Assembly: GCA_045600865.1 (NCBI GenBank)
Contig: JAZRYS010000168.1
Coordinates: 1,556-65,555 of the forward strand
DNA from: Candidatus Aphodosoma sp.
GTDB lineage: Bacteria > Bacteroidota > Bacteroidia > Bacteroidales > Paludibacteraceae
Length of the DNA: 64,000 bases
Reading direction: 5' to 3'
Shown in pieces: positions 3,053 through 53,779 of this stretch. Position numbers and translations under genes: made by a program. The notes beneath the pieces were generated by a model. That model made no database searches, had not been told where the DNA came from, and saw only the letters and a program-made list of their open reading frames with translations. Position 1 is the stretch's first letter; the number at the start of each line of letters is the position of its first letter.

Positions 3053-3080
3053 ATTTTCTAGAAGTTCTAGATGCTCTAGA
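3048..3080. repeat. Four tandem 9-bp units, each containing the palindrome TCTAGA
   Basis: TCTAGA occurs at 3048, 3057, 3066 and 3075 with an exact 9-bp period. The first copy contains the TAG stop of the upstream gene. The array ends 23 nt before the next ATG. Confidence 0.9.
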
Positions 3081-3102
3081 TAAACTATATACTAAAAATG
3101 AA

Positions 3103-15873: not shown

Positions 15874-16995
15874 TCAGTTGATTAGCATAGGCATAATGAG
15901 GTTCAGCAGATTTTCGTTCTCTCTCTGTTCAAAAGGAAGGAAAATGGCAGGACGAGAAGAGTCTGCAAGCTGGATACGTACAGTTTGATGTTCGATGCTT
16001 GCAAGTACCTCAGCAACCTGTGGTCCACGAAAACCTATCGTCATCTCGCTGCCATTGTATTGGCAAGCCAGTTCCTCACGGCCAGAACGCGATGTGTCAA
16101 CGTCCTGTGCGGTAAGTTCGAGGACATTCTCGTATACATGGAATTTGATGAGTTGCGTAGCCTGGTTGGAATAGTTAGATACACAGCGCAGAGCATTACG
16201 CAAAGTTTCATTTTCGATAATGAGTTCATAAGGGTTGTCCTTAGGAATTACACCATTATAGTTAGGATATTTACCCTCAATCTGACGGCAAATAACAGTT
16301 GCTGAATCAAGTTGGAATATGATATTCTTCTCATCGAAAATCACAAAGGCAGGGGTTGTATCGTTAGGAGAGATAAGTCCCTTCAATAGAATAGCAGATT
16401 TCTTAGGCAAGATAAACGAACGAGGAGTCTCACTTTTGATGTTTGTGAAACTCTGGCGCGAGAGCTTGTGAGCATCTGTGGCGACACATGTAAACATTTC
16501 AGGAGTGAAATCGAAATAAACGCCAGTCATTGTAGGGCGGATTTCGTCTGTGGCGGTAGAATTGATAGTTTTTGAAACACTCGTGAGAATGACATTTGCA
16601 GGCACTTGGATAGAGTCACGTTCTGTATTGATGTCAATTGGCTGTGGATATTCATTGCCACTCAATGCAATACAGTTAAACATGCCCGTTGAACTCTTTA
16701 TGAAGACCTCAAGATTGTTCTCATTGATTTCAATCTCGATAGGCTGTTTAGGCATGTTTTTTACAGTCTCGACGACAATATGAGGCAGTGCTATCGAAAG
16801 ATGTGCGCCTGTACTATCAATCTCTGTTGAGGTGATGATGGTATTCTCCAAGTTAGAACCAATGATAGTCAGTTTCGTGTCGTCTATCTCCATGAGAATA
16901 TTCTCAAGGATAGTAATGACATTGTTTGGAGCAACGGCTCTGTCTGCCATCTGGAGGCAGTTAAGCAAAGTAGAACTTGATATCTGGAATTTCAT
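15874..16995 (-). CDS. dnaN: DNA polymerase III beta sliding clamp
   Basis: 373 aa, with MKFQISSSTLLNCLQ... and a three-domain clamp pattern. It lies directly downstream of gyrB. Confidence 0.88.
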   Translation of the reverse strand: MKFQISSSTLLNCLQMADRAVAPNNVITILENILMEIDDTKLTIIGSNLENTIITSTEIDSTGAHLSIALPHIVVETVKNMPKQPIEIEINENNLEVFIKSSTGMFNCIALSGNEYPQPIDINTERDSIQVPANVILTSVSKTINSTATDEIRPTMTGVYFDFTPEMFTCVATDAHKLSRQSFTNIKSETPRSFILPKKSAILLKGLISPNDTTPAFVIFDEKNIIFQLDSATVICRQIEGKYPNYNGVIPKDNPYELIIENETLRNALRCVSNYSNQATQLIKFHVYENVLELTAQDVDTSRSGREELACQYNGSEMTIGFRGPQVAEVLASIEHQTVRIQLADSSRPAIFLPFEQRENENLLNLIMPMLIN

Positions 16996-17024: not shown

Positions 17025-19013
<1,989 letters not shown>

Positions 19014-19016
19014 CTA

Positions 19017-19024
19017 CAAAGTTA
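19017..19024 (-). promoter_or_regulatory. -7 promoter box TAACTTTG (minus strand) for gyrB-dnaN
   Basis: Plus-strand CAAAGTTA, 28 nt upstream of the gyrB start codon. Confidence 0.5.
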
Positions 19025-19031
19025 CGAAAAT

Positions 19032-19107
19032 TTATCCATACCCACAAAGAATTATCCATATTATTTTCCACTTTTTTTCATAGGCAGTTGTTAAATATTT
19101 ATCCGAA
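19032..19107 (+). promoter_or_regulatory. Cluster of DnaA-box-like 9-mers in the same orientation
   Basis: TTATCCATA at 19032 and 19052 (8/9 to TTATCCACA), TTTTCCACT at 19064 (7/9), and TTATCCGAA at 19099 (7/9). A perfect TTATCCACA lies at 18832-18840 inside the gyrB 5' end. Confidence 0.4.
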
Positions 19108-26097: not shown

Positions 26098-26492
26098 ATC
26101 AGTGTGTTTTAATATGTTGCCTACTCTAAAAAGGATTTTCGGCATACTCCATGTTTTTCTCAGTCCGTTGTTTGACGAGGCACAAAAAGTGGACTAACCT
26201 TTTCTATTCACAATCATAGACATCACCCCATTATGACAGTTTAGCAATTTGAAGATTGTGCAAAACAATGAATAACATCATGTTCTTAGTTGTGCATTTA
26301 GTTACATTTTATCCCATAGGCTTAATTTAATTAATTTTACACAGTTGAATCTATTTACTATGAGACCTAAAACCAATTACAATCAGGTAAAAGCTGAACA
26401 TACCTTATTGCAATCAATCAAAATACGTTTTCTGAGTTTTTGCAAAAGATGGCAAAATCTTTGTCTTGAAAAAAACATCTGATGTCTTTTTT

Positions 26493-26569
26493 GCAAATAA
26501 AAAACGCAGTCCCCAGTTGTCATTCCCTACTTGAAGGTTCTGGTAAACCCATACGACAAGAATGACAAC
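26493..26569 (-). repeat. Copy B of the dispersed element: 10-bp inverted repeat enclosing the conserved 28-nt core, followed by a T-run on the minus strand
   Basis: Arms are 26516-26525 (gttgtcattc) and 26560-26569 (gaatgacaac). The core at 26523-26550 matches 463-490 at 25/28 in reverse complement. The minus strand continues ...ctggggactgcgttttttatttgc. Confidence 0.6.
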
Positions 26570-26700
26570 GTAGCCTGCGCCGATATGTATAACCGCACTC
26601 TTAAGAGCGCATGAATATACATACACCGCAGACATTCATTGATCCCTCTTGCTTCAGGTCGTATAAAAATTTACCAGATTTTCAAGTACCGAAACAAGCG
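26510..26700. repeat. ~190-bp imperfect palindrome centred on CTCTTAAGAG (26598-26607)
   Basis: Reading outward from the centre, the two arms share AAGAGYGC, TATACATA, CGCAG, GTCGTAT, TTTACCAGA and TTCAAGTA in the same order. The right arm is a decayed inverted copy of element B. Confidence 0.6.
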
Positions 26701-26773
26701 TCAATAAACGCCTAAAATATGTCTGCTCGCCCACCCCCTAATGAGAGACCCCACAGGCGCGGGTTTGCGGTTG

Positions 26774-26781
26774 CAAAGGTA
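26774..26781 (-). promoter_or_regulatory. Orphan promoter P1: minus-strand TACCTTTG -7 box with TTTG at -33 spacing
   Basis: Plus-strand CAAAGGTA at 26774-26781. The minus-strand TTTG is at 26802-26805, giving a 20-nt spacer. The 20-mer 26772-26791 is 19/20 identical to 27080-27099. No credible ORF lies downstream for ~670 nt. Confidence 0.5.
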
Positions 26782-26838
26782 GGAATAATTTCTGAACTGG
26801 GCAAATGTTTGGGAAACTTTTTTCAATGATTGTTTATC

Positions 26839-26893
26839 CCAAATCGGTCATTGGGATTTGTCAAGCTCCCTTCATGGCTAATGACCGATTTGG
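26839..26893. repeat. 14-bp perfect inverted repeat (CCAAATCGGTCATT / AATGACCGATTTGG) with a 27-nt spacer
   Basis: Read directly. The left arm plus flank (CAAATCGGTCATTGGGAT, 26840-26857) recurs at 21802-21819 at 17/18. Confidence 0.8.
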
Positions 26894-26926
26894 TTTTAAT
26901 TGATAACTCTCAATTGAAAGGAGGTT

Positions 26927-27017
26927 GCGCCTTCGCTCGGGGTTCGCTCGGTATTCGCTTTTTGACCCCGAGAAGCGAATACCGAGCGAACTCGCAGCGA
27001 ACCTGCAGCGAACCTAA
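26927..27017. repeat. Iteron-like array: three forward TTCGCT and four reverse AGCGAA hexamers phased at exactly 11 bp
   Basis: TTCGCT lies at 26932, 26943 and 26954. AGCGAA lies at 26974, 26985, 26996 and 27007. The inner units form a perfect 19-bp inverted repeat (26942-26960 / 26973-26991). Confidence 0.85.
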
Positions 27018-27081
27018 TGTCTTGACTGTTCAGACCTCTGGAGTGTGAGCCATGAAAACATCCTTCCGCTGAATTGCACTG

Positions 27082-27089
27082 CAAAGGTA
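27082..27089 (-). promoter_or_regulatory. Orphan promoter P2: minus-strand TACCTTTG -7 box, duplicate of P1
   Basis: Plus-strand CAAAGGTA. The surrounding 20-mer is 19/20 identical to P1. It fires toward the iteron-like array. Confidence 0.45.
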
Positions 27090-27195
27090 TGAATAATTTT
27101 TGGTATGGCAATGGGTTGTCAGGACCTTGGCGGAATTAAAACTTGTATTGACTTGTGCCTGTGAGCGTTACAGCGGCTTTGAGATTGAAAATGGG

Positions 27196-27225
27196 GTGAA
27201 AAATGGAGGCAAAATTTGCCTCCAT
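27196..27225 (-). terminator. Putative intrinsic terminator ending the long minus-strand gene string
   Basis: ATGGAGGCAAAATTTGCCTCCAT (27203-27225) forms a stem of 8 bp or more. It is followed on the minus strand by TTTTCACCCCATTTTC, 49 nt after the stop at 27274. Confidence 0.6.
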
Positions 27226-27273: not shown

Positions 27274-28731
27274 TTATTTTACCTTCAGGTCGTAGCCGTA
27301 TATCGTGTTGCTGCTTGGTGCAGTCCAGAAATGGCGCAACACACCATCGATGATAACGTCTTTACTGTCACTATCACCGTCATAGAGAATTGGCACGTCA
27401 ATCTTGATGTCTTTCTCGACCTGTGCCTCGCCCTTTTCAATGTCAATCCATGCCTTATAGAGGTTAACATTCGAACCAGAAAGAGGTGTATTGACGAAGG
27501 TCATCAGTATGCGTGAATCGTCAGTTGTAACGAGTTTCGTCATATTTGACATAATGCTGCCTTTCGGAACCATTACCAACTGCTTGCCATCACCTTCGAA
27601 GTCCTTGTTTCCTGTCTGGTCAACAGTCTGCAGTGCTGTATATGCCTCAACACCGTTGGCATCAGACCATACGCATACGAGTTTGTGGCTGTTCTTGTCT
27701 AATGTGGCATACACATTCAAATATCCTGTACTGCAGCCAGTAGGGAGTATGTCAACTTCGCCAAAGCCGTTTGTCTTGCCATTTGCATCAAAATGATAGG
27801 CATAAGCTTTCAGAAGGGTGGATTCTCCGACTTTGCAGACAACGTATGCACCCCCGAGACCATCTTCGACAATCTTTGGACGGAAACCTAAAGAATAGAT
27901 CCTGTTGCTCATCAACAGTTCCTGACTCTGAATCGTTCCATCAGCCGAAATTTTAATGACATCAACATAGCCATCGATTTTTGCTTCGGTTGAGCCACCT
28001 CCGACTGGGTCGGCATACTGTACAATCATCAGCAAATCATTGTTTGAATTCACGAACATCTGTGGATTGCGGATATGACTCTTTGCTCCAGACGAGCCGT
28101 TGGCTGGGTCGAACAAGATAGGGTCTGTCACCATATTGCCCTCGCTATTGACACGAGCTACTGCCATCATTGGACCTGCACAAGCGGCAGCAACCCACGC
28201 ACCTCCGTTATTATCGGCAGCTACAAAGCCTTCGCATGGTGTAATGTTGGCATTTTCACCGAAATCGTAAAACAGTTTGCCATTCTCGCCCCATGCGAAA
28301 GAGCCGTCTGGACGTATCATCGTAATGTATGGGTGCATTATGTCACCGCTATCGCCCTTGGCACTATAGACATCTATCACATTGCCCTCGGTGGTAATGT
28401 CGAATACTGTTGTGCTTACCCAACTTATTGCTTCGCGTTTTGTCATCTGTATCCAATTGCTCCATTTTGCCTTGCCGTTGGCATCAACACACTGCATAAA
28501 TGGTACATAACAATCTTTGCTGACTTCAGCCCAGCTTTCGATGTAGGTACATTTGCTTTTGACATCCGATTTGTACAGCATTGCATCCATAACAAAATTG
28601 TCCAAGACAACGTAAATCTTGTTCTCTTCGACAGGCTTCGGTTCTACAGGATTATCTTTTTTGCATCCAACCAGACCTAAGACAAGGATTGATACTGATG
28701 TCAGCAAGTATCCAAGATTAATTTTTTTCAT
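27274..28731 (-). CDS. Lipoprotein, function unknown (possibly beta-propeller-like)
   Basis: Lipobox LVGC. 485 aa, with repeated G/D/N-rich beta-strand-like segments. I recognise no catalytic motif. Confidence 0.6.
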   Translation of the reverse strand: MKKINLGYLLTSVSILVLGLVGCKKDNPVEPKPVEENKIYVVLDNFVMDAMLYKSDVKSKCTYIESWAEVSKDCYVPFMQCVDANGKAKWSNWIQMTKREAISWVSTTVFDITTEGNVIDVYSAKGDSGDIMHPYITMIRPDGSFAWGENGKLFYDFGENANITPCEGFVAADNNGGAWVAAACAGPMMAVARVNSEGNMVTDPILFDPANGSSGAKSHIRNPQMFVNSNNDLLMIVQYADPVGGGSTEAKIDGYVDVIKISADGTIQSQELLMSNRIYSLGFRPKIVEDGLGGAYVVCKVGESTLLKAYAYHFDANGKTNGFGEVDILPTGCSTGYLNVYATLDKNSHKLVCVWSDANGVEAYTALQTVDQTGNKDFEGDGKQLVMVPKGSIMSNMTKLVTTDDSRILMTFVNTPLSGSNVNLYKAWIDIEKGEAQVEKDIKIDVPILYDGDSDSKDVIIDGVLRHFWTAPSSNTIYGYDLKVK

Positions 28732-29561: not shown

Positions 29562-29905
29562 AGATACTTCACTCCATGTTTGTTCAACCATCTTTCCTCG
29601 CATTTGCGACGTTGGCCCTCGTTATGGGCTCTTTTTCGCGTCGCTTTGTACTGGCGTTCGCCAACCTCTTTGGCATAGCAAAGCACACCTTTATCGTTCT
29701 CAACGACAATCCAGCCGTCCAGAGTTATGTTGCAGTGCCAATGCTCGTCGCCTATTAGACGTATCATAACAGTATCGCCTTTGTCGGGCTGAACCTTTGC
29801 GATTGGATATGGGGCTGCGGGAACTCTCTGTGGGCCACGTCTCTCCTGGCCGAATGCAAAGACACTGGCAGCCAGCAAGGCTATCAATACAATACTTTTT
29901 CTCAT
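29558..29905 (-). CDS. Stand-alone paralogue of the N-terminal module of the adjacent M6-type proteases
   Basis: It has a signal peptide and DTVMIRLIGDEHWHCNITLDGWIVVENDKGVLCY. This aligns with STVRVRLAGDEFFSYMVTEDGRIV, STIEAELVGDEYHHCYKSLDGFIV and TTVEAELVGDEFWHGMVTREGMLL in the three proteases. There is no protease domain. Confidence 0.6.
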   Translation of the reverse strand: MRKSIVLIALLAASVFAFGQERRGPQRVPAAPYPIAKVQPDKGDTVMIRLIGDEHWHCNITLDGWIVVENDKGVLCYAKEVGERQYKATRKRAHNEGQRRKCEERWLNKHGVKYL

Positions 29906-32277
29906 AATATTTTGATAAAATAAATACTTTCTGGAGCATCAAATTCCATTACGTCACTTTCGGCATCACGTGTCATGAGAACACGTCCCATGCCATCTAT
30001 CACCATCACTCGCATTCCTTCTTTCAATCTCTCAATTCTTACCTTTCCGCCTATCACCTTTTCTCGGATAATCACAGGCTCATCCTCATCATCCTCAACT
30101 TCAACCACAGAGACAGGAGCCTTCTCTCCGCAGATATGGATATCACCGATACTGAAAGAATATATGTCAGAACTGAATCTAATCTTGGCATTTGGCTTCA
30201 CGTCATACAGAGTCACCCTGACAATATTAGTTCCCTTTGTTGCCAGTGGATACTCTGACGAATATCCATCTTCCGACATGATACCGAAATACGACCTTGA
30301 TTCCTGTGAGAGAATGAAAGCCACCTCTATGTCACCCTGCAATCCAAGTTCAGGAGTGATAAAGTATCCTTTCTCAGAATCATTTCCTACTTTCACCAAC
30401 CCAACATTTGATTCAAGGATGTTTCCTGTCCAGCCTTTGTTCTCAGTATAAGCATCGATATTCTGGGTGATGTTTATGCCTCTGCTGTTACCGATATTCT
30501 TGAATTGTTCTGTAAAACAGTCGCCATAATAATCTTCCACTATTGAACCATCTTTCCTGTACACAGCAAAAAGAATTGTGTTTCTCTTTGGATGGTACGT
30601 AGTTCCTGCATTGTCGATTTTCGAACTGTTCCCGGTCATTGATTCACACCATCCGACAAATTCATATCCATCATCAGCTGTCACGGAAGGAAGGATTACT
30701 CCTGCATATACCGAATCTTCAGTAAGTACTGTAGTGTCGGCTATGCCGAATCCTCTGTCGTCAAATGTCACCGTGAAAGGTCCTTTAGGTGCCCCGCCTT
30801 TTGCATCGAAACTGATGATATCGCCTGTTTCCGTTATGCTTGTCAGTGGATAATCAGTATATGGAGTGAATGTGGTGACGTGACGTGTTCCAGGGAATGG
30901 GTCGCTTGCGGATCCGTCCGTATTGGTGGAATTTCCAGCCTCGACAATATCAACCACCATGTCGTGTGGGTCGTTGTTTGCCTCGTTGCCATACCATTTA
31001 CTTGCATCCCATCTGATTTTCTCGACAAGCATGCCGTGTCCGGGCACGTAGCTGTCCCATGATTTATTCTGTCTGTTTTCAAGCACATAATATTCATCAG
31101 GCACAGGATTGTCGAAATCATAGTTGAATTCTCCTGTGCTGGTTATTATATATCCCTCATGACTGCTTAAGGTATAGTCCATTACATAGCTCTCGGAAGT
31201 TGATATTACAGGCGGGTTGAACCATCCCAATGAAAATCTCTCGAAAGTGGAATATCCCGCTGGGGTGTGTTCGTCGTTGAGATAGTTTCCGCTGCACATC
31301 AAATCCCAACTGCCAACTGTCTTATGGTCAGAGGAGTAATCAGTAACATATAGGTCCATGAGTCCCAACAGGTGAGAAAATTCATGACAGAAAGTTCCAA
31401 TGCCGCACAATGATGTATAGCCTTCTGGTCCTGCCAATTCAGAGGTGCAGCCATAATCATAAAGTTTCTTTCCTCCGAAAGTCAGTTCACTCTTGCTGTC
31501 AGCATCAGTGTTGCTTGTACTGACGACCCATCTGTGTGGCCAGATATAATTACTGTTGTTTCCGGAATAATTCTCGCCGCATCCTGCAAAGTAAATGAAC
31601 ACATTTTCGATGTAGCCGTCATTGTCGCCATCGTAATTTGCGAAATCCACGTTTGCGCTATTGTCTGCAGCCAGTTTTCTGACAGCATCAAGTACCATCT
31701 GTGCAGGGCGAGTGTCGTTGTCATAACTGGAAGGTGCTCCGTAATATGCAGTGTTGTGATCCAGGGTATATGGTCCGAAAACGTCGAAGTCAGGGCTATA
31801 GACACCTCCTGAATTGTCGGTGAAATACTGTTTTACCGACCCTGTTGCACCATAATTGCTGTACCCATTCTGGTTCAGCAGGTTATCGAATTCTGTTCTC
31901 GGATATGTGAAAGATTGGTCGCTGAAGTTAACAAGTATCACCAGGCATCTGGAATATGCACCACTACTTGTCTTTGCGGGCATCCTGCGCTGGTTCTCCT
32001 TCATCATCAGTCTGCTCATCTTGCGTCTGGCAGCGATGTATCTGGCACTCATATCCTCTTCGTTCATTCCTGTCTCCACCATCACGCCGCCCTGTTCTTT
32101 GACTATGCGTCCGTCCTCCGTCACCATATAACTGAAAAACTCGTCTCCAGCGAGTCTTACCCTCACGGTGCTTCCGTCGGCCATGAGTTTTTCCACATAC
32201 TGGTTATTGGCTGGCACAGACCATGCCATCGTGGCACCAAACAATGCGAGCACCAAACTGAATACAACCTTTCTCAT
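29902..32277 (-). CDS. M6 (immune inhibitor A-like) family metalloprotease with a T9SS-type C-terminal domain, paralogue 3
   Basis: Signal peptide. Zinc motif FCHEFSHLLGLMDLY (HExxHxxGxxD). Tail PVIIREKVIGGKVRIERLKEGMRVMVIDGMGRVL..IYFIKIL. Confidence 0.75.
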   Translation of the reverse strand: MRKVVFSLVLALFGATMAWSVPANNQYVEKLMADGSTVRVRLAGDEFFSYMVTEDGRIVKEQGGVMVETGMNEEDMSARYIAARRKMSRLMMKENQRRMPAKTSSGAYSRCLVILVNFSDQSFTYPRTEFDNLLNQNGYSNYGATGSVKQYFTDNSGGVYSPDFDVFGPYTLDHNTAYYGAPSSYDNDTRPAQMVLDAVRKLAADNSANVDFANYDGDNDGYIENVFIYFAGCGENYSGNNSNYIWPHRWVVSTSNTDADSKSELTFGGKKLYDYGCTSELAGPEGYTSLCGIGTFCHEFSHLLGLMDLYVTDYSSDHKTVGSWDLMCSGNYLNDEHTPAGYSTFERFSLGWFNPPVISTSESYVMDYTLSSHEGYIITSTGEFNYDFDNPVPDEYYVLENRQNKSWDSYVPGHGMLVEKIRWDASKWYGNEANNDPHDMVVDIVEAGNSTNTDGSASDPFPGTRHVTTFTPYTDYPLTSITETGDIISFDAKGGAPKGPFTVTFDDRGFGIADTTVLTEDSVYAGVILPSVTADDGYEFVGWCESMTGNSSKIDNAGTTYHPKRNTILFAVYRKDGSIVEDYYGDCFTEQFKNIGNSRGINITQNIDAYTENKGWTGNILESNVGLVKVGNDSEKGYFITPELGLQGDIEVAFILSQESRSYFGIMSEDGYSSEYPLATKGTNIVRVTLYDVKPNAKIRFSSDIYSFSIGDIHICGEKAPVSVVEVEDDEDEPVIIREKVIGGKVRIERLKEGMRVMVIDGMGRVLMTRDAESDVMEFDAPESIYFIKIL

Positions 32278-32287
32278 AATTTTTCTT

Positions 32288-33970
32288 TTATTCTATTCTT
32301 ATAAAATAGACCACTTCGGGAGCATCAAATTCCATGATGTTCTCTTCGGCCGTCTTCTGCGTCAATATGCGACCTGTGGCGTCAACCACTTTGACAGTCA
32401 TCCCTTCTTTGAGACGTTCTATTCTTACTTTGCCGCCTATTACTTTTTCCCTGATTATAACAGGTCCGTCTTCTTTTAAGACTTCTTCGACACTGGCTGT
32501 CACACCTAATGTAAAACTTATTTGTCCGTTGGACTCACTAATCTGACTCAACGCATAATTTGAGTATGGGTTAAACGTCCTTACCATGCTGGTTCCTGGG
32601 AATGGGTCGCTTGACGAAGTATAATAATATCCGCCATATTTCTGATCTCCTCCTGCAGCTACAACAACACAGCCGAGACTTGATTTGTTATTGTTTACTG
32701 TATTGTTTTCCCATTTCGAGGCACTGAAGTTTATTTTCCATACCAACATGCCGTGACCTGGCAGATAGGCATCCCAGCCTGACTTTTGTCTGTTCTCAAG
32801 CAGGTAATATTGCTTGGGCGACGGATTGTCTGGTCTCAGGTTGCTTTTTCCAGTAGAGGTTATCATGTATGCCTGTCCATTACCTGTATTCACATTGCTT
32901 AACGTATAGTTCCCCGACTGGTTCAGTACCGTAGGAGTAAGCCATCCGACATAAAATCTCTCTTGTGCTGAATATACAGGAGGTGTGTTCATGTCGTTGT
33001 TGTAGCATCCGCCATCCATGATGTCCCATTCTCCCGGTGTTGCCCATCTGTAACTATAGTTTGTGTCGTATAAGTCTGGCAATCCCAGTACGTGCGAGAA
33101 TTCGTGACAGAAGGCACCAATGCCGTTTCTTGTCGTTCCGTATGTGCCAGCCAATTCGCTTGAGCAGGCATAATCGTACAGAGTTTTTCCGCCATAGGTG
33201 ATTTGCCCAGTGACATCGCTACTGAAAATATAAAACTTGTGCGGCCATATAGTGTTCTCGCTGGCTCCTGCGCTCTCAGCATATCCGGCATAGAAGATGA
33301 ATACGTTGTCCACATATCCGTCGTTGTCGCAATCGTACTGCTGCAAAACATTCTGCCCTTCGGCCGCCACCATTTTTTCCACCGCATCGACAACCATCTG
33401 GTCGGCATGTGCATCATTTCCCCGAGAATCATTCTGACCATAATAACTCATATTGCGATCCAAAGTGTATGGACCGTAAACATCAAATTCCGGATTGTAT
33501 TTATTGAATGAGCAGGCTTTGAAATAATCTTTGGCAGAACCCGTGGCACCATTATAATTGTAGCCTTGCTGGTTCATCATGTTTGTAAAGGATTCATTGG
33601 TGTGGGTGAAGGCCTTGTCTTTGAAAGATACCAGAATGACTAATCCTTTTGACGCATAGTTGGTAGTTGTCACATCGATGCTCTTAGGCTCAATGGGGGC
33701 TTCCTGACGTGCCTTTGCCATCTGACGCATAGACGAGACTTTCGCTGCATCGTATCTCTCGTCCGTCTTGACATAAAAATTGTCCTCGGTCTGTCTAACG
33801 ATAAACCCATCCAGAGACTTGTAACAATGGTGATACTCATCACCGACCAGTTCAGCCTCAATGGTTGAACCGTCTCTTGTTACTAATTTCATGACTCCTG
33901 GCTTTGCAGGAATTGCCCATGCGGCTGCTGCCACCATAGCAATGGCGAAAACTAAAAATATCTTTTTCAT
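32288..33970 (-). CDS. M6-type metalloprotease with a T9SS-type C-terminal domain, paralogue 2 (short form)
   Basis: FCHEFSHVLGLPDLYD. Its tail is nearly identical in protein sequence to paralogue 3 (PVIIREKVIGGKVRIERLKEGMTVKVVD). It lacks the ~230-aa middle region of the other two. Confidence 0.75.
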   Translation of the reverse strand: MKKIFLVFAIAMVAAAAWAIPAKPGVMKLVTRDGSTIEAELVGDEYHHCYKSLDGFIVRQTEDNFYVKTDERYDAAKVSSMRQMAKARQEAPIEPKSIDVTTTNYASKGLVILVSFKDKAFTHTNESFTNMMNQQGYNYNGATGSAKDYFKACSFNKYNPEFDVYGPYTLDRNMSYYGQNDSRGNDAHADQMVVDAVEKMVAAEGQNVLQQYDCDNDGYVDNVFIFYAGYAESAGASENTIWPHKFYIFSSDVTGQITYGGKTLYDYACSSELAGTYGTTRNGIGAFCHEFSHVLGLPDLYDTNYSYRWATPGEWDIMDGGCYNNDMNTPPVYSAQERFYVGWLTPTVLNQSGNYTLSNVNTGNGQAYMITSTGKSNLRPDNPSPKQYYLLENRQKSGWDAYLPGHGMLVWKINFSASKWENNTVNNNKSSLGCVVVAAGGDQKYGGYYYTSSSDPFPGTSMVRTFNPYSNYALSQISESNGQISFTLGVTASVEEVLKEDGPVIIREKVIGGKVRIERLKEGMTVKVVDATGRILTQKTAEENIMEFDAPEVVYFIRIE

Positions 33971-33976
33971 AATGCT

Positions 33977-36370
33977 TTAATTTAAAACTACTGCAAAGGA
34001 ACAACCTTTCCTTCTAACTTCAATGACGTACAGACCTTGACCTCCGTCGAACACGAATGAACTGCCAGAAGCCTGCTTGTCAATTATTATCTTTCCTGTC
34101 ATGTCCATGACTCTGACATTGTCGCCCTCTTCCAATCCATAGACTATTCTGTCCGAACCTTCTCTCACGACAACTATCTCTTCGGTTGTCTCAACATCTT
34201 CTACTGGCGATTTCTTTGCACCACAAAATTCAATGTTGTCAACATAGAATATATTGGCTTCACATTGAATGGTGATTCTTGAATCGAGCTGTACGTTATA
34301 TAGATGGAACACATAGTCATCATAATTCTTGCTTATCAGGACAGTGTCTGTTGCCATGCCGGAACTTATAATCATATTAGTGGCAATCAGAGCCTTTGCC
34401 CTTACGGTGATTGTCATGTCTCCGGAAAGTCTCATGCTTGGTGTCACCAGCTTGCCTGCCTCATCGTTGTTTCCGCACTTGGCTGCACCATTGTCGCAGA
34501 ACACCTTTATTCCGTTCCAACCTGTCCAGTCGGCATATTTGTCTATCTTGTCAGAAATTTCAGTGTTCTTTGATTTTGTCAAGCCGTCGAACGTTTCGGT
34601 TGCACACCCTGTTTCGGTAGGCACGATTCTGCCTCCCTGAGAATATACAGCAAACAGTTCAATATCTCCCTCAGGATAATATGTCTCTCCTGGCAACCCG
34701 GCTGAAACCTCTGCTGCCGAAGATGATTCGCACCATCCTTCGAACTTGTATCCCTTGAAGACATTGCTTACGTTTGGCAGCACTACCCCTGCACCTATAC
34801 CGCTTTCAATGAGTTCCTGAGTGCTGCAGTCTGCTCTTCCCATGGCGTCAAAATTGACTTTGAAATACTGCCTTCCGCCTTTGTATTTGAACTTGACAAT
34901 GCCAAAGTCATCCTCAATGTCCGTCAATGGCTGACCGTCGTATGGAGTATATGACGTTACATTGCTTGTGCCTGGGAATGGATCACTTGCCTGGGCATAA
35001 TAGCCATGCACTCCGTCTGCCTCGATGATGTCAACTCCCATGTCGTGACTGTCATTGTTTACTGTATTGCTGTACCACTTATATTCATCGTAACTGACTT
35101 TGGTAATGAGCATACCCCCACCTGGCAGATAACTGTCCCATCCTTTCAGCTGTCTGCTTTCGAGCAGGAAAAACTCAGAAGGATTAGGGTCGGCACCATT
35201 CAGGTTATGGTGTTCTGTTGAAGAAATCAGATAAGCCTCTCCCTGACCGTTGTTGATGTCGTCAAGCGATATCATATCTGGTTCGCTCAGCACTGTTGGC
35301 TTCAACCACCCGAGATAGAATCTCTCGTATGCCGAATATGCGGGTGGTGTGTGTTCATTGTTCAGGTAGTTGCCGGCATCCATCACGTCCCAGAGCGAGC
35401 ATGTCCTGTGTCCGGAATAACCAGTATCGTACATGTCTGGCAAGCCAATGACGTGTGAGAATTCGTGGCAGAATGGACCAATGCCGCTCATGGTTGAGCC
35501 GCTGTTGCCGCTGAGCTCGCATGTGCAGGCGTAATTGCCCAATGTCACACCTCCGTATGTTGTGGTTCCATCAACCCAGCTTTCATAGACATACGACTGA
35601 TGCGGCCAGATGGTGGTTGAACCTCCTCCTGCATTCTCGCCATATCCTGCATAGAATACGAACACGTTGTCAACATATCCGTCATTGTCGCAGTCATATT
35701 GCCTGAACACGTTGTTGCCTTGGTCTGCAGCAAGTTTTGCAGCTGCATCTGCTATCATCTGCGCTGCATTCTGGTCTGACCCCTGACCACCATAGTTCTT
35801 GCCGTAATATGAGCAGGTATTGTCCAGCGTATAAGGTCCATAGACATCAAATGTCGGATTGTATTTTCCGTATGAGTTGTTCTGGAAATATTGCTTCACT
35901 GAGCCTGACTTATTGTTGCTTGGACCTGTCTCTTCGTTCATCATGTCGTCGAAGGCCGCATTTGTCTTCGTGAAAGCCTTGTCGGAGAAACTTACCAGTA
36001 TCACCAGCACTTTTCCCGGGAATTTCATGTCGCCGATACCCATTGGCTTCATATTGTCTTCCTTGCCCACCGAGCGTATTCTCTTATATTCAGCTTCTCT
36101 CTGTTTCAGAAGACTTTGTGCCCTCATGGCAGCAATATCGACATTTGCAATGTTCTGATTTGTCACTTCAAACAGACCTGGTTGGACTTCACGCAGGAGC
36201 ATTCCTTCCCTTGTTACCATTCCATGCCAGAATTCATCACCTACCAATTCTGCCTCAACCGTGGTTCCATTAGTTTTCTTTACTTCGAACCAACCTCTCT
36301 TAGCTGGAACTCCCCAGCAGGCATTAATGATGCTTAATGACATTAACCCTGTTAAGAATAACTTTTTCAT
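33977..36370 (-). CDS. M6-type metalloprotease with a T9SS-type C-terminal domain, paralogue 1
   Basis: FCHEFSHVIGLPDMYD. Signal peptide present. The ATG overlaps the stop of the upstream AI-2E transporter gene (ATGA). Confidence 0.75.
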   Translation of the reverse strand: MKKLFLTGLMSLSIINACWGVPAKRGWFEVKKTNGTTVEAELVGDEFWHGMVTREGMLLREVQPGLFEVTNQNIANVDIAAMRAQSLLKQREAEYKRIRSVGKEDNMKPMGIGDMKFPGKVLVILVSFSDKAFTKTNAAFDDMMNEETGPSNNKSGSVKQYFQNNSYGKYNPTFDVYGPYTLDNTCSYYGKNYGGQGSDQNAAQMIADAAAKLAADQGNNVFRQYDCDNDGYVDNVFVFYAGYGENAGGGSTTIWPHQSYVYESWVDGTTTYGGVTLGNYACTCELSGNSGSTMSGIGPFCHEFSHVIGLPDMYDTGYSGHRTCSLWDVMDAGNYLNNEHTPPAYSAYERFYLGWLKPTVLSEPDMISLDDINNGQGEAYLISSTEHHNLNGADPNPSEFFLLESRQLKGWDSYLPGGGMLITKVSYDEYKWYSNTVNNDSHDMGVDIIEADGVHGYYAQASDPFPGTSNVTSYTPYDGQPLTDIEDDFGIVKFKYKGGRQYFKVNFDAMGRADCSTQELIESGIGAGVVLPNVSNVFKGYKFEGWCESSSAAEVSAGLPGETYYPEGDIELFAVYSQGGRIVPTETGCATETFDGLTKSKNTEISDKIDKYADWTGWNGIKVFCDNGAAKCGNNDEAGKLVTPSMRLSGDMTITVRAKALIATNMIISSGMATDTVLISKNYDDYVFHLYNVQLDSRITIQCEANIFYVDNIEFCGAKKSPVEDVETTEEIVVVREGSDRIVYGLEEGDNVRVMDMTGKIIIDKQASGSSFVFDGGQGLYVIEVRRKGCSFAVVLN

Positions 36371-39352: not shown

Positions 39353-39368
39353 AATATATTAGTTTTTT

Positions 39369-39430
39369 TCTAGATATTCTAGAATCTCTAGATACTCTAG
39401 AACCTCTAGCTATTCTATAGAACTTCTAGT
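39369..39430. repeat. Seven tandem ~9-bp units containing TCTAGA (four perfect, three degenerate)
   Basis: TCTAGA at 39369, 39378, 39387 and 39396. TCTAGC at 39405, TCTATA at 39414 and TCTAGT at 39425. The array fills the bamA-skp intercistronic spacer. Confidence 0.9.
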
Positions 39431-39433
39431 TTA

Positions 39434-42055
39434 TTAGAATTCCTGCCCAAGGATAAAATGGAAGTGCGAGCCGCCAAGAGTTCCAGTCTGGTCTTTGTCG
39501 AAGCCCCATCCCCAGTCAACACCAAGCAGACCAAACATAGGCAGAAATACGCGTACACCAACTCCTGCAGACCTCTTCAGTTCGAATGGGTTGAACTCCT
39601 TGAATTCTGTCCAGCAGTTGCCACCTTCCAGGAATCCCAACACCCATATTGTCGATTGAGGTTTTAGCAATATAGGGTATCTTATCTCCATTGTCAGCTT
39701 AGTGTAGATGTTACCTGCATATCCCCAGTAACCATCGCCTGAGTAAGGGGTAAGGGTTCCCGAATCATAACCTCTGACTGCCACCAGTTCACTACCTGGA
39801 GTAACGTAACCCGAAGTACCGTCACCTCCCACCAGGAATTTACCGAATGCAGAACGCTTATCGTGGTTGTAATAACCCAAGAAGCCGTATTCTGCCCTTG
39901 CCATCAGTACAAGTTTCTCATCTGGAGTCAGAGGCACAAAGAACTGGGCCTTGAATTTCCATTTATGATATTCTACCCATTCGTTTCTCTGAGCCAGATC
40001 CATGTTGGCATAATCCTTGTCTTTGTTTGCAGGGAATGCCGAGTATGGCAAAGTCGCTGAAACTGACAGCGATATGTTGGAACCTCTTCTTGTATATATC
40101 GGGTTGTTTATCGAATTTCGAGAGAGTGTTATTCCGAGTGCAAGGTCGTTTGTGACACCACTTTCAAAGCCATAGTAATATTTGAACCAATTGTTTAGAT
40201 GGTGACGCTGGTACGACAGTTCACAGAAAATCTGGAAGTAATCGTCAGGCCAGTTTAACCTTGTACCATAACCTACCGATGTGCCGAGCGTTCTCATATA
40301 TACGTTCTTGTCGTATTCCGTACCCCAACTGTTATAATTGTAGTTGTATGTCTGGTCATATATTCCATAGTAGTTGGTGTAGTAATTGCTCATGTTGTTA
40401 TAGTTGGTGTAGGCGCGGTTGCTCAATCCGGTCTGCACGGCATAGTAAATGCTGAATGAGAAAGAATTTGGACGTTTGCCACCCAACCATGGGTCAAAAA
40501 ACGAAAGGCTGTAGTTCTGATAGTAAATGCCATTCACTTGTGCCTTGAGGCTCAATGTCTGTCCTTCTCCCTGAGGCACAATCCGGTATGTCTTAGGCTT
40601 GAATAAGTTCTGTATGGCGAAGTTGGTAAATTTCAGTCCCACAGAGAGCACAAGTCCTGACTGGCCGACACCGGCAGAGAACTCTATCTGGTCGGAATTC
40701 TTGCTCTCAAGGTTAAAGTCGATGTCAACAGTACCTGTCTCCATATCTGGTTTCATGTCAACTCCTGAGTATATCTTCTCCTCGTCAAACTGTCCCAATT
40801 GTGCCAGTTCACGCAAAGTACGTACAAGGTCACTTTGGCTGTATAGTGCACCTGGTTTCACCCTCATCTCGCGTCGAACGACATGCTCATACAATTTAGT
40901 GTTACCATTGATGGTTATCTTGTTTATTGTGGCTTGCGAACCTTCGTATATGCGGAACTCGTAATTGATGGAGTCACCATTTATTCCAGTCTCTACCGGA
41001 TCGAGTTGCATGAACAGATAACCATTGTCTTTGTAAAGAGCTGTCACGGCATCTTCTTCCTCAAACAGTCGCTTGTCCATTTGCTTGCCGTTGTAAATGT
41101 CGCCTTGATTCAACCCGAGTATCTGGTTCAGGTATTCAGACGAATACATGGTGTTGCCCACCCACTTCATTTCGCCGAAGTAATATTTCTTGCCTTCGGT
41201 TATGTCCATGTAGATATCTACTCGTCCGTCATCACGGCGAATCACTGTGTCGTATTCGATTTTGGCATCACGGAACCCCATCTCGTTATATTTCTCGATC
41301 AGTGTCTTCTTGTCGTTTGCGTATTCCTTAGGAATGAACTTCTTTGACCGGAAAATGTTCTGTATCTTGCCTTTACGGTTGGTTTTCTTCATGGCCTTGT
41401 CAATCTTGTACATGCTCAAGGCTGAATTTCCGGTGACGATTATGTCGTTCACCTTCACTTTTGTTCCCTTATCTACACTGATGTCTATCAGCACGTTGCT
41501 GTCGTCCGCAGGGTCTGGTTTCTGATAGACAACCACCTCTGCAGAGTAGTAGCCCTTGTCAGCCAGGTATTTCTTTATCGCTATCTTCGTGCGGTCTATG
41601 GCATCTGCATTCAGCTGCTTGTTCTTTTGTATTTCGACTGTTGGGTCGATATCTTCTATTTCGCCCTTTTTCAGGCCGTAATAGTTTACTTTTTTGACGC
41701 GTGGCAGTTGTTTCAGTGCAATAGTTATCCATAGGCTGTCACCAATGATGCTGTCTGCATAGATTTTGACATCGGCAAAGAATCCCTGTTTCCAGAATTT
41801 CTTAACCGCATTGGTTATTTTTGCACCTGGCATCTTCAATCTTTCACCGACAGTCAGGCCAGAGAAACCCACCAACATATAGTCTTCATAATGGTCTGCT
41901 CCTTCGATATTTATCCCCATCAGCACATATTCACGATTTGTTTCGGCATAATCGATCTTATACCGTTCCGTGATGCTTTCTTGTGCAATCGACTTCATTG
42001 TCGTCAGCAGCAGCAATATGACTAAAGAATATCTTTTCACGTCAATAATTTTCAC
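39434..42055 (-). CDS. bamA: Outer membrane protein assembly factor BamA
   Basis: 873 aa, with a signal peptide, POTRA-like repeats and a C-terminal Omp85 barrel ending ...HFHFILGQEF. Confidence 0.9.
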   Translation of the reverse strand: MKIIDVKRYSLVILLLLTTMKSIAQESITERYKIDYAETNREYVLMGINIEGADHYEDYMLVGFSGLTVGERLKMPGAKITNAVKKFWKQGFFADVKIYADSIIGDSLWITIALKQLPRVKKVNYYGLKKGEIEDIDPTVEIQKNKQLNADAIDRTKIAIKKYLADKGYYSAEVVVYQKPDPADDSNVLIDISVDKGTKVKVNDIIVTGNSALSMYKIDKAMKKTNRKGKIQNIFRSKKFIPKEYANDKKTLIEKYNEMGFRDAKIEYDTVIRRDDGRVDIYMDITEGKKYYFGEMKWVGNTMYSSEYLNQILGLNQGDIYNGKQMDKRLFEEEDAVTALYKDNGYLFMQLDPVETGINGDSINYEFRIYEGSQATINKITINGNTKLYEHVVRREMRVKPGALYSQSDLVRTLRELAQLGQFDEEKIYSGVDMKPDMETGTVDIDFNLESKNSDQIEFSAGVGQSGLVLSVGLKFTNFAIQNLFKPKTYRIVPQGEGQTLSLKAQVNGIYYQNYSLSFFDPWLGGKRPNSFSFSIYYAVQTGLSNRAYTNYNNMSNYYTNYYGIYDQTYNYNYNSWGTEYDKNVYMRTLGTSVGYGTRLNWPDDYFQIFCELSYQRHHLNNWFKYYYGFESGVTNDLALGITLSRNSINNPIYTRRGSNISLSVSATLPYSAFPANKDKDYANMDLAQRNEWVEYHKWKFKAQFFVPLTPDEKLVLMARAEYGFLGYYNHDKRSAFGKFLVGGDGTSGYVTPGSELVAVRGYDSGTLTPYSGDGYWGYAGNIYTKLTMEIRYPILLKPQSTIWVLGFLEGGNCWTEFKEFNPFELKRSAGVGVRVFLPMFGLLGVDWGWGFDKDQTGTLGGSHFHFILGQEF

Positions 42056-53724: not shown

Positions 53725-53779
53725 AATAGTTATTTATTTTGTAATTTTTATTAAAGAGAAAATGGTCAATAATTTTTTG

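What the first reader, a model, noticed from the sequence alone, without database searches (positions are those of the whole stretch)
26927..27017. Iteron-like array: seven TTCGCT hexamers (3 forward, 4 reverse) at exactly 11-bp phasing
The forward units are gcgccTTCGCT, cggggTTCGCT and cggtaTTCGCT, with hexamers at 26932, 26943 and 26954. After a 14-nt spacer come AGCGAAtaccg, AGCGAActcgc, AGCGAAcctgc and AGCGAAcctaa, with hexamers at 26974, 26985, 26996 and 27007. The 11-bp spacing places every hexamer on one face of the helix. Arrays like this occur at plasmid and phage origins as iterons. They also occur as winged-helix (OmpR/PhoB-type) response-regulator sites and as recombinase arm sites. 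The inner units also form a perfect 19-bp inverted repeat (26942-26960 / 26973-26991). Its 12-nt loop contains CCCCGAG, which is complementary to CTCGGGG (26936-26942) immediately 5' of the stem. An RNA copy could therefore form alternative or pseudoknotted pairings. The array lies ~60 nt downstream of P2 and ~150-240 nt upstream of P1. No replication initiator, recombinase or regulator gene is adjacent, so the binding partner, if any, acts in trans.
Basis: seen in the sequence. Interest (0 to 1): 0.7.

Follow-up and report, generated by a model that had tools for sequence, protein, structure and literature searches.

The report
Foldback repeat of phased TTCGCT hexamers
The seven evenly spaced TTCGCT hexamers are real and form the strongest hairpin-forming palindrome in the window, but they look like one copy of an undescribed family of small palindromic intergenic repeats in Bacteroidota, not a replication origin or a conserved regulator site.

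Summary

The iteron/origin reading is not supported. No initiator, recombinase or regulator gene is adjacent, and there are no DnaA boxes or AT-rich element.

The array sits in a 305-nt block (26894-27198) that close relatives lack. This block lies between the terminator of a lipoprotein gene and a small MITE-like palindrome, 55 nt downstream of a Bacteroidetes-type promoter on the minus strand.

A scan of 185,579 species genomes for the 2+2 palindromic pattern found 31 loci, against about 0.1 expected by chance. By record title, 24 are Bacteroidota. A metagenome scan found 78 more. In Bacteroidota the arrays:
- are intergenic, beside unrelated housekeeping genes;
- are multi-copy in some genomes;
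- vary by whole 11-nt units between orthologous loci;
- show loop flip-flop;
- often coincide with contig ends.

A separate Acidobacteriota class lies upstream of imuA-imuB and is probably a LexA operator.

Best reading (about 0.5): a foldback-type palindromic repeat whose hexamer cores are probably recognised by an unknown trans-acting protein. I found no description of it in Rfam or the papers searched. Whether TTCGCT is special among hexamers was not controlled.

The parts
26927..27017 (.). Palindromic array of seven 11-nt units with an invariant TTCGCT/AGCGAA core (3 forward, 4 reverse)
   Evidence: All five two-hexamer matches in the window fall here, and none of 100 shuffles reached that count.
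26942..26991 (.). Inner perfect hairpin: 19-bp arms (26942-26960 / 26973-26991) with a 12-nt loop (26961-26972) that holds a slipped-register copy of the CGGGG spacer
26894..27198 (-). Lineage-specific 305-nt block holding the promoter-like site and the array. It has no homology to related contigs, although the sequence on both sides does.
   Evidence: matches to relatives end at 27199 and resume at 26893; in L174 the terminator is followed after about 50 nt by the MITE-like element.
27080..27102 (-). Bacteroidetes-type promoter-like site (TAccTTTG -7 box, aTTG at -33) pointing into the array. The inferred transcription start is near 27070, about 55 nt before the array.
   Evidence: Sequence read and repeat family D1. 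The consensus TTTG-N19-21-TAnnTTTG is from my own knowledge. The site is not conserved in relatives.
27203..27225 (-).
   Evidence: (I11). Conserved in L121-L123 and L174.
26839..26893 (.).
   Evidence: I4. Longer copies are at L157:3438-3647 and at the end of L174.
26772..26794 (-). Second Bacteroidetes-type promoter-like site (TAccTTTG, with TTTG 20 nt upstream). It heads a conserved leader and small ORF.
   Evidence: Conserved with L157.
26414..26771 (-). Conserved leader plus 73-aa ORF (26635..26414), downstream of the array on the minus strand
   Evidence: 84% nucleotide identity to L157:505-804. Homologues P0134 and P0135 exist.

Best explanation
The array is one copy of a family of small foldback-type palindromic intergenic repeats found mainly in Bacteroidota.

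Structure. Each element is a long imperfect palindrome whose two arms are tandem runs of 11-nt units with a TTCGCT core. Read 5'->3' on either strand, the TTCGCT arm always comes first and the AGCGAA arm second. Some genera add outer 11-nt arrays of GGTACGG-like units.

What is shown:
- Such elements recur far above chance.
- They are intergenic and sit beside unrelated genes.
- They are multi-copy in some genomes and metagenomes.
- They gain and lose whole units.
- Their central loop inverts between orthologous copies.
- The window's copy lies in a block that relatives lack.

What is inferred:
- The element folds as a DNA hairpin or cruciform during replication. Slippage and template switching then drive unit turnover and loop flip-flop.
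- The invariant hexamers, one per helical turn, are contacts for a trans-acting protein, either a transposase-like or a host DNA-binding protein, which would explain spread and maintenance.
- In this window the element is transcribed from the promoter-like site at 27080-27102. It would then form a roughly 90-nt hairpin in the 5' part of an RNA that runs toward the small ORF and lipoprotein operon, where it could block read-through or stabilise the RNA. This local effect is a side consequence, not the reason the element exists.
For: Recurrence.
- A genome scan for TTCGCT-N5-TTCGCT-N(8-30)-AGCGAA-N5-AGCGAA gave 31 loci. My calculation from 24 fixed bases in 596 Gb gives about 0.1 expected by chance.
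- By record title 24 of the 31 are Bacteroidota.
- Copies per genome: 5 in one Mediterranea MAG, 3 in one Chitinophagaceae MAG, 2 in Butyricimonas synergistica.
- A metagenome scan added 78 loci.

Dispersal.
- 28 of 31 arrays lie between ORFs, in tandem, convergent and divergent gene contexts.
- The 58 flanking proteins share no family.
- No consistent promoter motif points into the arrays.

Multi-copy behaviour.
- The Mediterranea copies share a core of about 110 nt with unrelated flanks.
- Eleven rumen contigs share 150-200 nt, and several end at the array.
- Peat contigs share at least 450 nt.

Palindrome beyond the hexamers. Spacers are 62% complementary across the dyad, against 25% for random sequence.

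Turnover.
- L127 and L131 have flanking proteins that are 94-97% identical. Their arrays differ by whole units and their loops are inverted.
- L196/L235 and L217 have identical flanks and exactly reverse-complemented loops.

The window.
- Homology to relatives stops at 27199 and resumes at 26893.
- Contigs L121-L123 and L174, which carry the orthologue of the 485-aa gene, all end 160-175 nt past its stop. L121-L123 end in another 11-nt periodic stretch.
- The 77%-identity relative L157 has a degenerate 11-nt array upstream of the same conserved small ORF. Its centre carries the 12-mer CCGCTCCTATAG. In the 1.85 Mb held, that 12-mer otherwise occurs only in Mediterranea element centres.
- All 42 hexamer positions in the window are identical, while the non-facing spacers differ at several positions each.
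Against: - Only one copy is visible in the 64-kb window. The rest of the source genome could not be searched, so multi-copy status is unproven for this genome.
- No target-site duplication, sharp element ends or partner transposase were found in any locus.
- The pattern fixed the hexamer, so part of its apparent conservation is ascertainment. In outer units that the pattern did not require, hexamers are only moderately better kept than spacers (0.74 against 0.60).
- No control scan with other hexamers was possible.
- The window's spacers are not pyrimidine-rich like the family consensus, and it has no outer GGTACGG arrays.
- Family members lie upstream of the same small ORF in two species (window and L157). 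This could mean a local function rather than selfish spread.
- Strict-pattern hits are few per genome.
Confidence: 0.5

Rival explanations
1. The array is an operator or enhancer for a trans-encoded winged-helix or ribbon-helix-helix protein. The protein binds one hexamer per helical turn from both sides and controls the promoter-like sites at 27080-27102 and/or 26772-26794.
For: - The hexamers are invariant and the spacers variable, with exact 11-bp phasing.
- The array lies 55 nt downstream of one promoter-like site and about 135-245 nt upstream of the next.
- The Acidobacteriota class with the same 2+2 layout sits about 25-100 nt upstream of imuA-imuB at orthologous loci, as a repressor operator would.
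- The window's right arm reads GAAC-N7-GAAC-N7-GAAC.
- An 11-nt array also lies upstream of the same small ORF in L157.
Against: - The array is not conserved at the corresponding place in relatives.
- The array in L157 has a different core (ATAGCA/AGCAGA), so a shared regulator is unlikely.
- In Bacteroidota, distances to gene starts range from 23 to more than 1000 nt and neighbouring functions are unrelated.
- Up to 7+4 units and spacer complementarity across the dyad are not needed for duplex-DNA binding.
- Known Bacteroidetes SOS regulators bind GGA-N5-TCC or CTAA-N5-TTAG and are absent in Bacteroidales (PMC8565304).
- No other site is present in the window.
Confidence: 0.2
2. The array is a structured RNA element, either a small RNA or a 5'-leader hairpin, transcribed from the promoter-like site at 27080-27102. 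It would act as an attenuator, terminator, processing site or stabiliser for the transcript that enters the small ORF and lipoprotein operon.
For: - A Bacteroidetes-type -7 box lies 55 nt upstream on the minus strand.
- The RNA folds strongly on both strands, z = -5.2 to -6.3.
- A-form RNA has about 11 bp per turn (own knowledge).
- Some unrelated 11-nt arrays in Paludibacteraceae loci also follow a -7 box, for example L161-L164.
Against: - No Rfam family matches, even at E <= 10.
- No U-tract follows the hairpin.
- Only 7 of the 31 genome loci have a TAnnTTTG box within 250 nt pointing toward the array, at scattered distances.
- There is no consistent strand asymmetry in fold energy or G-U pairs.
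- The promoter-like site itself is lineage-specific.
Confidence: 0.15
3. The array is a neutral by-product. A local tandem duplication of an 11-mer was followed by palindrome formation through template switching, with no recognition by any protein and no mobility.
For: - Unit gain and loss and loop inversion are what replication errors at palindromes produce.
- Other period-11 tandem arrays with unrelated motifs occur in the same kinds of genomes.
- Period 11 is not clearly enriched once the ascertained arrays are removed.
Against: - Homogenisation by slippage should copy whole 11-mers. In the window only the hexamers are identical.
- The same core recurs in several Bacteroidota orders, with a shared weak spacer consensus, shared centres (CTATAG-type) and shared outer GGTACGG arrays.
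- Copies with homologous cores but unrelated flanks occur within single genomes.
Confidence: 0.1
4. The array is a set of iterons of a plasmid, phage or chromosomal replication origin, a partition centromere, or recombinase arm sites.
For: Eleven-bp phased repeats occur in R1 parC and in the pMV158 RepB bind locus (own knowledge).
Against: - No Rep, Par, integrase or transposase domain was found in the surrounding ORFs scanned, about 12-52 kb of the window.
- The nearest TTATCCACA-like words are at 25736 and 29059.
- The array is G+C-rich (0.53-0.54) with no AT-rich neighbour suited to unwinding.
- BLAST finds nothing similar in 72,556 plasmids and only a 32-nt chance-level match in phages. 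The palindromic pattern has 0 hits in viral contigs.
- A candidate oriC (GC-skew minimum, divergent genes, AT-rich spacer at 53725-54135, two parS-like sites at 56 kb) lies 27 kb away.
Confidence: 0.03

Closest known systems
REP / BIME / REPIN elements of Proteobacteria (repetitive extragenic palindromes, mobilised by RAYT transposases)
   Same: Short, dispersed, intergenic imperfect palindromes that fold as hairpins. They occur in many copies beside unrelated genes, have a modular and variable make-up, and have a conserved short core thought to be read by a trans-acting protein (general background: PMC3733652, PMC3184786).
   Different: There is no GTAG or CGTC tag. The arms are tandem runs of 11-nt units with a hexamer core rather than a single 20-40-nt palindrome. 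No RAYT-like gene was seen, and copy numbers under the strict pattern are low.
MITEs and eukaryotic Foldback/Galileo-type transposons
   Same: The long inverted arms are themselves made of short tandem sub-repeats that carry multiple transposase-binding sites (PMC3688188). The elements are non-coding, cause assembly breaks, and are present or absent between relatives.
   Different: This case is prokaryotic and much smaller (about 90-400 nt). No target-site duplication, sharp termini or autonomous partner was found, so mobility is not shown.
LexA direct-repeat SOS box GTTC-N7-GTTC (Alphaproteobacteria, Acidobacterium)
   Same: The period is 11 bp with a TTC-containing core. My scans recovered this type upstream of imuA-imuB in Acidobacteriota. 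The window's right arm contains GAAC-N7-GAAC twice in overlap.
   Different: The window has seven units in a hairpin-forming palindrome and no SOS gene nearby. Bacteroidales lack the known SOS regulators, and Bacteroidetes motifs are GGA-N5-TCC and CTAA-N5-TTAG (PMC8565304).
Plasmid iterons, R1 parC (ParR) and the pMV158 RepB bind locus
   Same: Multiple short repeats at 11-bp phasing, bound cooperatively on one face of the helix (own knowledge).
   Different: Those repeats are direct, lie next to the rep or par gene they serve, and sit on a replicon. None of this holds here.
Pneumococcal BOX elements
   Same: Modular intergenic repeats with a variable number of an internal module and a strong predicted secondary structure (own knowledge).
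   Different: The sequence is unrelated, the module is 45 nt rather than 11 nt, and the phylum differs.

Membership tests
Replication-origin iterons (plasmid, phage or chromosome) | An initiator (Rep or DnaA) gene or DnaA boxes adjacent | tested here: not met
   Pfam scans of the neighbouring ORFs found lipoproteins, M6 peptidases and an AlbA_2/HTH protein, but no Rep. The nearest DnaA-box-like words are more than 1 kb away.
Replication-origin iterons (plasmid, phage or chromosome) | An AT-rich unwinding element next to the repeats | tested here: not met
   G+C is 0.53-0.54 over the array and 0.38-0.46 beside it, with no AT-rich tract.
Replication-origin iterons (plasmid, phage or chromosome) | Similar arrays on known plasmids or phages | tested here: not met
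   No BLAST match in plasmids and one 32-nt chance-level match in phages. The palindromic pattern gave 0 hits in viral contigs.
OmpR/PhoB- or LexA-type winged-helix operator | Direct repeats at 10-11-bp phasing | tested here: met
   Exact 11-bp phasing, and GTTC-N7-GTTC twice on the minus strand.
OmpR/PhoB- or LexA-type winged-helix operator | Site conserved in the promoters of orthologous target genes | tested here: not met
   Relatives lack the block 26894-27198. L157 has a different core.
OmpR/PhoB- or LexA-type winged-helix operator | The cognate regulator is present in the lineage and the regulon is coherent | tested here: not met
   Both groups of Bacteroidetes SOS regulators are absent in Bacteroidales (PMC8565304). 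Genes flanking the Bacteroidota arrays are functionally unrelated. Other regulator families could not be tested.
REP/REPIN-like dispersed palindromes | Many copies in one genome, with unrelated flanks | tested here: inconclusive
   Met for other genomes: 5 copies in the Mediterranea MAG, 11 rumen contigs and 9 peat contigs. There is only one copy in the 64-kb window, and the source genome is not in the collections searched.
REP/REPIN-like dispersed palindromes | Intergenic hairpin-forming imperfect palindrome | tested here: met
REP/REPIN-like dispersed palindromes | An associated RAYT (Y1 transposase) and a GTAG/CGTC tag | tested here: not met
   No such tag is present in the units. No transposase family recurs among the 58 flanking proteins. 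Whole genomes were not searchable.
MITE / foldback transposon | Terminal inverted repeats | tested here: met
   The whole element is an inverted repeat.
MITE / foldback transposon | Target-site duplication and sharp ends | tested here: not met
   None is visible at the window junctions or in alignments of multi-copy sets.
MITE / foldback transposon | Filled and empty sites between relatives | tested here: inconclusive
   The block is absent from L174 and L121-L123 at the matching place, but those contigs end within 175 nt, so a clean empty site was not seen.
Intrinsic terminator | G+C-rich hairpin followed directly by a U-tract | tested here: not met
   The scan found only a 5-bp sub-hairpin, and no T run follows the full stem on either strand. 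The true terminator of the upstream gene is at 27203-27225.
Any curated RNA family (Rfam 15) | Covariance-model match | tested here: not met
   Only sub-threshold miRNA-model noise falls over the array. There is no match in 20 family loci.

The most novel reading that the evidence does not exclude
TTCGCT-core 11-nt arrays are the recognition platform of a so far unidentified Bacteroidota protein, such as a domesticated transposase or a hairpin/cruciform-binding nucleoid protein. The protein would bind one hexamer per helical turn on both arms. Together they would form a REP/RAYT-like or foldback-transposon-like system that is new for prokaryotes, with loop flip-flop as its footprint.
Probability: 0.2. 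Interest if true: 0.7.

Novelty: new variant of a known kind. Interest (0 to 1): 0.45.

Why it matters
If the family is real, it adds a structurally distinct kind of small palindromic repeat to Bacteroidota, a phylum whose intergenic repeats are little studied. Its arms are built of helically phased hexamers.

Three consequences would follow:
- There should be an unknown trans-acting protein to find.
- Assemblies of these genomes break repeatedly at such sites, which this would explain.
- The elements could shape transcription between neighbouring genes through hairpins, read-through blocks or promoters they carry with them.

For this window the practical message is more modest. The array should not be annotated as an origin or as a conserved operator.

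Tried and rejected
- Rfam at gathering threshold and at E <= 10: nothing on the array.
- Viral-contig scan for three direct TTCGCT at 11 nt: at least 120 hits, but they are unrelated tandem or coding low-complexity repeats, and almost none has an inverted partner.
- The palindromic pattern in viral contigs: 0 hits.
- BLAST against plasmids and phages: nothing useful.
- Exact-protein look-ups for window proteins and for P0134: not on record.
- Shared neighbour genes: none.
- Separate half-arrays flanking a gene, as in an autonomous element: none in the loci held.
- A promoter motif pointing into the arrays: not consistent.
- Strand asymmetry of RNA folding and G-U pairs: none consistent.
- The opposite arrangement (AGCGAA arm first): 0 in the 1.85 Mb held, but this is not a real control.
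- Other hexamers in the same palindromic layout in the held loci: none, but the sample is too small to be informative.
- General enrichment of period 11: not seen once the ascertained arrays are removed.
- Short ORFs beside the peat-class arrays: under 90 aa and not credible.
- LexA reading for the window: rejected from PMC8565304.
- oriC reading: rejected.
- Literature searches for such arrays in Bacteroidetes: nothing. The single TTCGCT hit is incidental, in a P. gingivalis MITE paper.
- PMC4352660, on the 77-bp inverted repeat of P. gingivalis, is not held.
Full report
**1. Observation**

- TTCGCT starts at 26932, 26943 and 26954. AGCGAA starts at 26974, 26985, 26996 and 27007. A 14-nt spacer separates the two sets.
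- 26942-26960 and 26973-26991 are a perfect 19-bp inverted repeat with a 12-nt loop.
- CCCCGAG in the loop is complementary to CTCGGGG at 26936-26942.

The array is far beyond chance. The pattern TTCGCT-N5-TTCGCT occurs five times in the window, all of them here. The mean from 100 dinucleotide-preserving shuffles is 0.25 and the largest count was 2. Allowing two mismatches adds only two unrelated sites.

It is the longest inverted repeat in the 64 kb. It folds far better than shuffled sequence:
- DNA: -34.3 kcal/mol, z = -6.8.
- RNA: z = -6.3 on the + strand and -5.2 on the - strand.

The loop/flank complementarity is what a tandem-repeat palindrome gives when one unit pairs in a shifted register. 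I do not read it as a designed pseudoknot.

**2. Local anatomy**

The neighbouring genes are on the minus strand. Read on that strand, the region runs in this order:
1. A 485-aa lipoprotein gene (28731..27274).
2. Its intrinsic terminator (27225-27203, followed by a T run).
3. A Bacteroidetes-type promoter-like site, aTTG-N19-TAccTTTG (27102-27080). The consensus is from my own knowledge.
4. The array, about 55 nt after that site.
5. A 14-bp inverted repeat (26893-26839).
6. A second promoter-like site, TTTG-N20-TAccTTTG (26794-26772).
7. A leader and a 73-aa ORF.
8. A DUF805b RNA motif (26152-26118) and a further lipoprotein operon.

Pfam finds no initiator, recombinase, partition or transposase domain in the surrounding ORFs. 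Homologues of the 196-aa protein are named Paludibacteraceae by their sources, so the organism is a member of the Bacteroidales.

**3. Origin and iteron reading**

This reading is not supported.
- The nearest TTATCCACA-like words are at 25736 and 29059.
- The array is the most G+C-rich part of the spacer and has no AT-rich neighbour.
- Nothing similar exists in 72,556 plasmids. In phages the only match is a 32-nt chance-level one.
- The palindromic pattern has no hit in viral contigs.
- The window has a better oriC candidate 27 kb away. It combines the cumulative GC-skew minimum, divergent gene orientation, an AT-rich 410-bp spacer at 53725-54135, and two perfect parS-like palindromes at 56034 and 56080.

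**4. Conservation in relatives**

The array is not conserved at this place.
- Contigs carrying orthologues of the 485-aa gene (79-90% identical: L121-L123 and L174) keep the terminator and then diverge. All end 160-175 nt past the stop.
- L174 runs after about 50 nt into a longer copy of the 'P2' element, with terminal repeat CCCAAATCGGTCATTAG. That element also occurs at L157:3438-3647.
- L121-L123 end in another 11-nt periodic stretch (TTCGAG / CTCGAC / CTCGAC).
- BLAST of the whole spacer shows that homology to relatives stops at 27199. It resumes at 26893 (the 'P2' element) and at 26795 (the second promoter, leader and small ORF, 81-84% identical to L157).

So 26894-27198, which holds the first promoter-like site and the array, is a lineage-specific 305-nt block in a spacer that collects small palindromic insertions.

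L157, whose neighbouring protein is 77% identical, has a degenerate 11-nt array upstream of the same small ORF (ATAGCA/AGCAGA cores, L157:142-252). Its centre carries CCGCTCCTATAG. In the 1.85 Mb I held, that 12-mer occurs elsewhere only at the centres of the Mediterranea elements described in section 5. About 0.2 occurrences are expected by chance.

**5. A recurrent kind of element**

I scanned one genome for each of 185,579 species with the pattern TTCGCT-N5-TTCGCT-N(8-30)-AGCGAA-N5-AGCGAA. This gave 31 loci. My own calculation, from 24 fixed bases, 23 gap lengths and 596 Gb on both strands, expects about 0.1.

By record title, 24 of the 31 are Bacteroidota. They include Chitinophagaceae, Puia, Ferruginibacter, Chitinophaga, Anaerorudis, Butyricimonas, Mediterranea, Bacteroides and several Bacteroidales MAGs. 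Some genomes have more than one copy: 5 in one Mediterranea MAG, 3 in one Chitinophagaceae MAG, and 2 in B. synergistica. The same scan of metagenome contigs gave 78 more loci.

Shared properties:
- Arms of 2-7 in-phase units.
- A weak spacer consensus of TTCGCT followed by c-t-t-k-s, so the TTCGCT arm is pyrimidine-rich.
- Spacers 62% complementary across the dyad.
- Centres such as CTATAG or ...CGCTCCTATAG....
- In several genera, outer 11-nt arrays of GGTACGG-like units.
- The Butyricimonas copy is an imperfect palindrome of about 250 nt.

**6. Behaviour of the Bacteroidota elements**

- 28 of 31 lie between ORFs, in tandem, convergent and divergent contexts.
- The 58 flanking proteins are unrelated housekeeping enzymes and transporters with no shared family.
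- No consistent promoter motif points into them.
- No second half-array lies at a distance, as the ends of an autonomous element would.
- No Rfam family matches.
- Copies within one genome or metagenome share a core but not the flanks: about 110 nt in Mediterranea, 150-200 nt in eleven rumen contigs, and at least 450 nt in nine peat contigs.
- Many short metagenome contigs end at or within about 50 nt of the array, as expected for multi-copy or hairpin-forming DNA.

Two orthologous comparisons show how fast the elements change.
- L127 and L131 have flanking proteins that are 94-97% identical. Their arrays differ by whole 11-nt units and the central loop is inverted.
- L196/L235 and L217 have identical flanks and loops that are exact reverse complements.

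Loop flip-flop with perfect arms is the footprint of hairpin-mediated template switching, or of inversion of the whole element. It argues that the palindrome folds in vivo.

**7. A separate class that is a true operator**

Sixteen or more metagenome loci and three genome loci (L136, L151, L153) are orthologous to one another. They carry a fixed 2+2 arrangement with A/T-rich spacers, about 25-100 nt upstream of two genes whose products start MPATCRADVEALL... and MFACLY....

I read these two genes, by sequence recall and not by a domain search, as imuA-imuB, the SOS mutagenesis cassette. The GTTC-N7-GTTC direct repeat is the LexA box of Alphaproteobacteria, and by the title of Mazon et al. 2006 also of Acidobacterium (PMC3323433). 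I therefore infer that these sites are LexA boxes.

It does not transfer to the window:
- Bacteroidetes SOS regulators bind GGA-N5-TCC or CTAA-N5-TTAG.
- Both groups of regulators are absent in Bacteroidales (PMC8565304).
- No SOS gene is nearby.

**8. Mechanism**

Shown: recurrence far above chance, dispersal, multi-copy cores, unit turnover, loop inversion, and lineage-specific presence in the window.

Inferred:
- The element is a foldback-type palindromic repeat that forms hairpins during replication. This generates its turnover.
- The hexamers are read by a trans-acting protein. They are invariant in the window (42 of 42 positions), while non-facing spacers differ at several positions each.
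- In this window the element is transcribed from the site at 27102-27080. It would put a hairpin of about 90 nt, followed by the 'P2' hairpin, at the head of an RNA that runs into the second promoter region.

Weaknesses:
- Only one copy is visible in the window.
- No target-site duplication, sharp ends or partner gene was found.
- The search pattern fixed the hexamer. In units it did not require, hexamers are only moderately better kept than spacers (0.74 against 0.60).
- Finding family members upstream of the same small ORF in two species leaves room for a local role.

**9. Comparison with known systems, and novelty**

The closest known kinds are REP/BIME/REPIN elements, MITEs, and, for architecture, eukaryotic Foldback/Galileo transposons, whose long inverted arms are made of tandem sub-repeats (PMC3688188).

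Membership of the REP or MITE families proper is not established. There is no GTAG/CGTC tag, no RAYT, no target-site duplication and no transposase.

I found no description of such arrays in Rfam or in eight literature searches.

I rate it a new variant of a known kind. It is of moderate interest as a lead to an unknown hexamer-binding protein in Bacteroidota. For annotating this window it is ordinary: it is not an origin, not an iteron array, and not a conserved operator.

Noticed in passing
window 56034-56049 and 56080-56095: Two identical perfect 16-bp palindromes, TGTTCCACGTGGAACA, lie 46 bp apart (start to start) around the gap between two + strand genes; the second overlaps the TTG start (56071) of the downstream ORF. 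They look like parS sites, which would place the window near the replication origin.
   Followed up: partly
window 53725-54135: This AT-rich 410-bp spacer (G+C about 0.37) lies between divergently oriented genes at the minimum of the cumulative GC skew. It is a candidate oriC. dnaN (16995..15874), gyrB (18989..17025), a topoisomerase and recX are also in the window.
   Followed up: partly
window 4385-52214: TTATCCACA-like 9-mers are over-represented: 35 found against 18.9 expected, and no shuffle reached 35. Their strand preference flips near 18.8 kb, with four boxes clustered at 18719-19060 around the gyrB start.
   Followed up: no
Related Paludibacteraceae contigs carry longer copies (about 210 nt), and one contig ends inside it. 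A single half-site lies at window 21801.
   Followed up: partly
window 26414-26795 (minus strand): A promoter-like site, a leader of about 130 nt and a 73-aa ORF (core AVIHIGAGYVVIL) are 84% identical at nucleotide level to L157. Some differences are synonymous, and only two protein homologues exist in 5.8 billion sequences. This may be an unannotated small membrane protein or a conserved leader RNA.
   Followed up: partly
window 3043-3081 and 39368-39439: Period-9/18 tandem arrays of TTCTAGATA-like, partly palindromic units lie in two intergenic spots 36 kb apart.
   Followed up: no
window 26118-26152 (minus strand): A DUF805b RNA motif (Rfam RF02914, 40.8 bits) lies directly upstream of the 196-aa lipoprotein gene.
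   Followed up: no
window 29902-36370 (minus strand): Three tandem paralogues of M6 (immune inhibitor A-like) peptidases are present, one with a Listeria-Bacteroides repeat. They are followed by small genes and the 485-aa lipoprotein gene, and the same order is kept in relatives (L121).
   Followed up: no
L136, L151, L153, L178-L231 (several): A fixed TTCGCT-N5-TTCGCT...AGCGAA-N5-AGCGAA site lies about 25-100 nt upstream of imuA-imuB-like genes in Acidobacteriota genomes and in sediment and soil metagenomes. It is probably a double LexA direct-repeat box. A similar fixed site lies upstream of a gene whose product starts MSTSPRIGTAGWSY (which I recall as DUF72-like; no domain scan was run) in L180, L188, L206 and L234.
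   Followed up: partly
L161-L164 (about 1837-1876 in L161): A period-11 direct array of TATGTTATCCG lies about 30 nt downstream of a TAccTTTG promoter box in Paludibacteraceae contigs. Copy number differs between samples (3.6 against 4.6).
   Followed up: no
L001-L120 (viral contigs): Many phage contigs carry TTCGCT at 11-nt spacing within a larger homologous repeat (...CCTTATCCTTATCCTTATAGGCTTCGGT TTCGCT...). It reads as a coding K/D/E-rich low-complexity tail on the opposite strand and is unrelated to the window's array.
   Followed up: no
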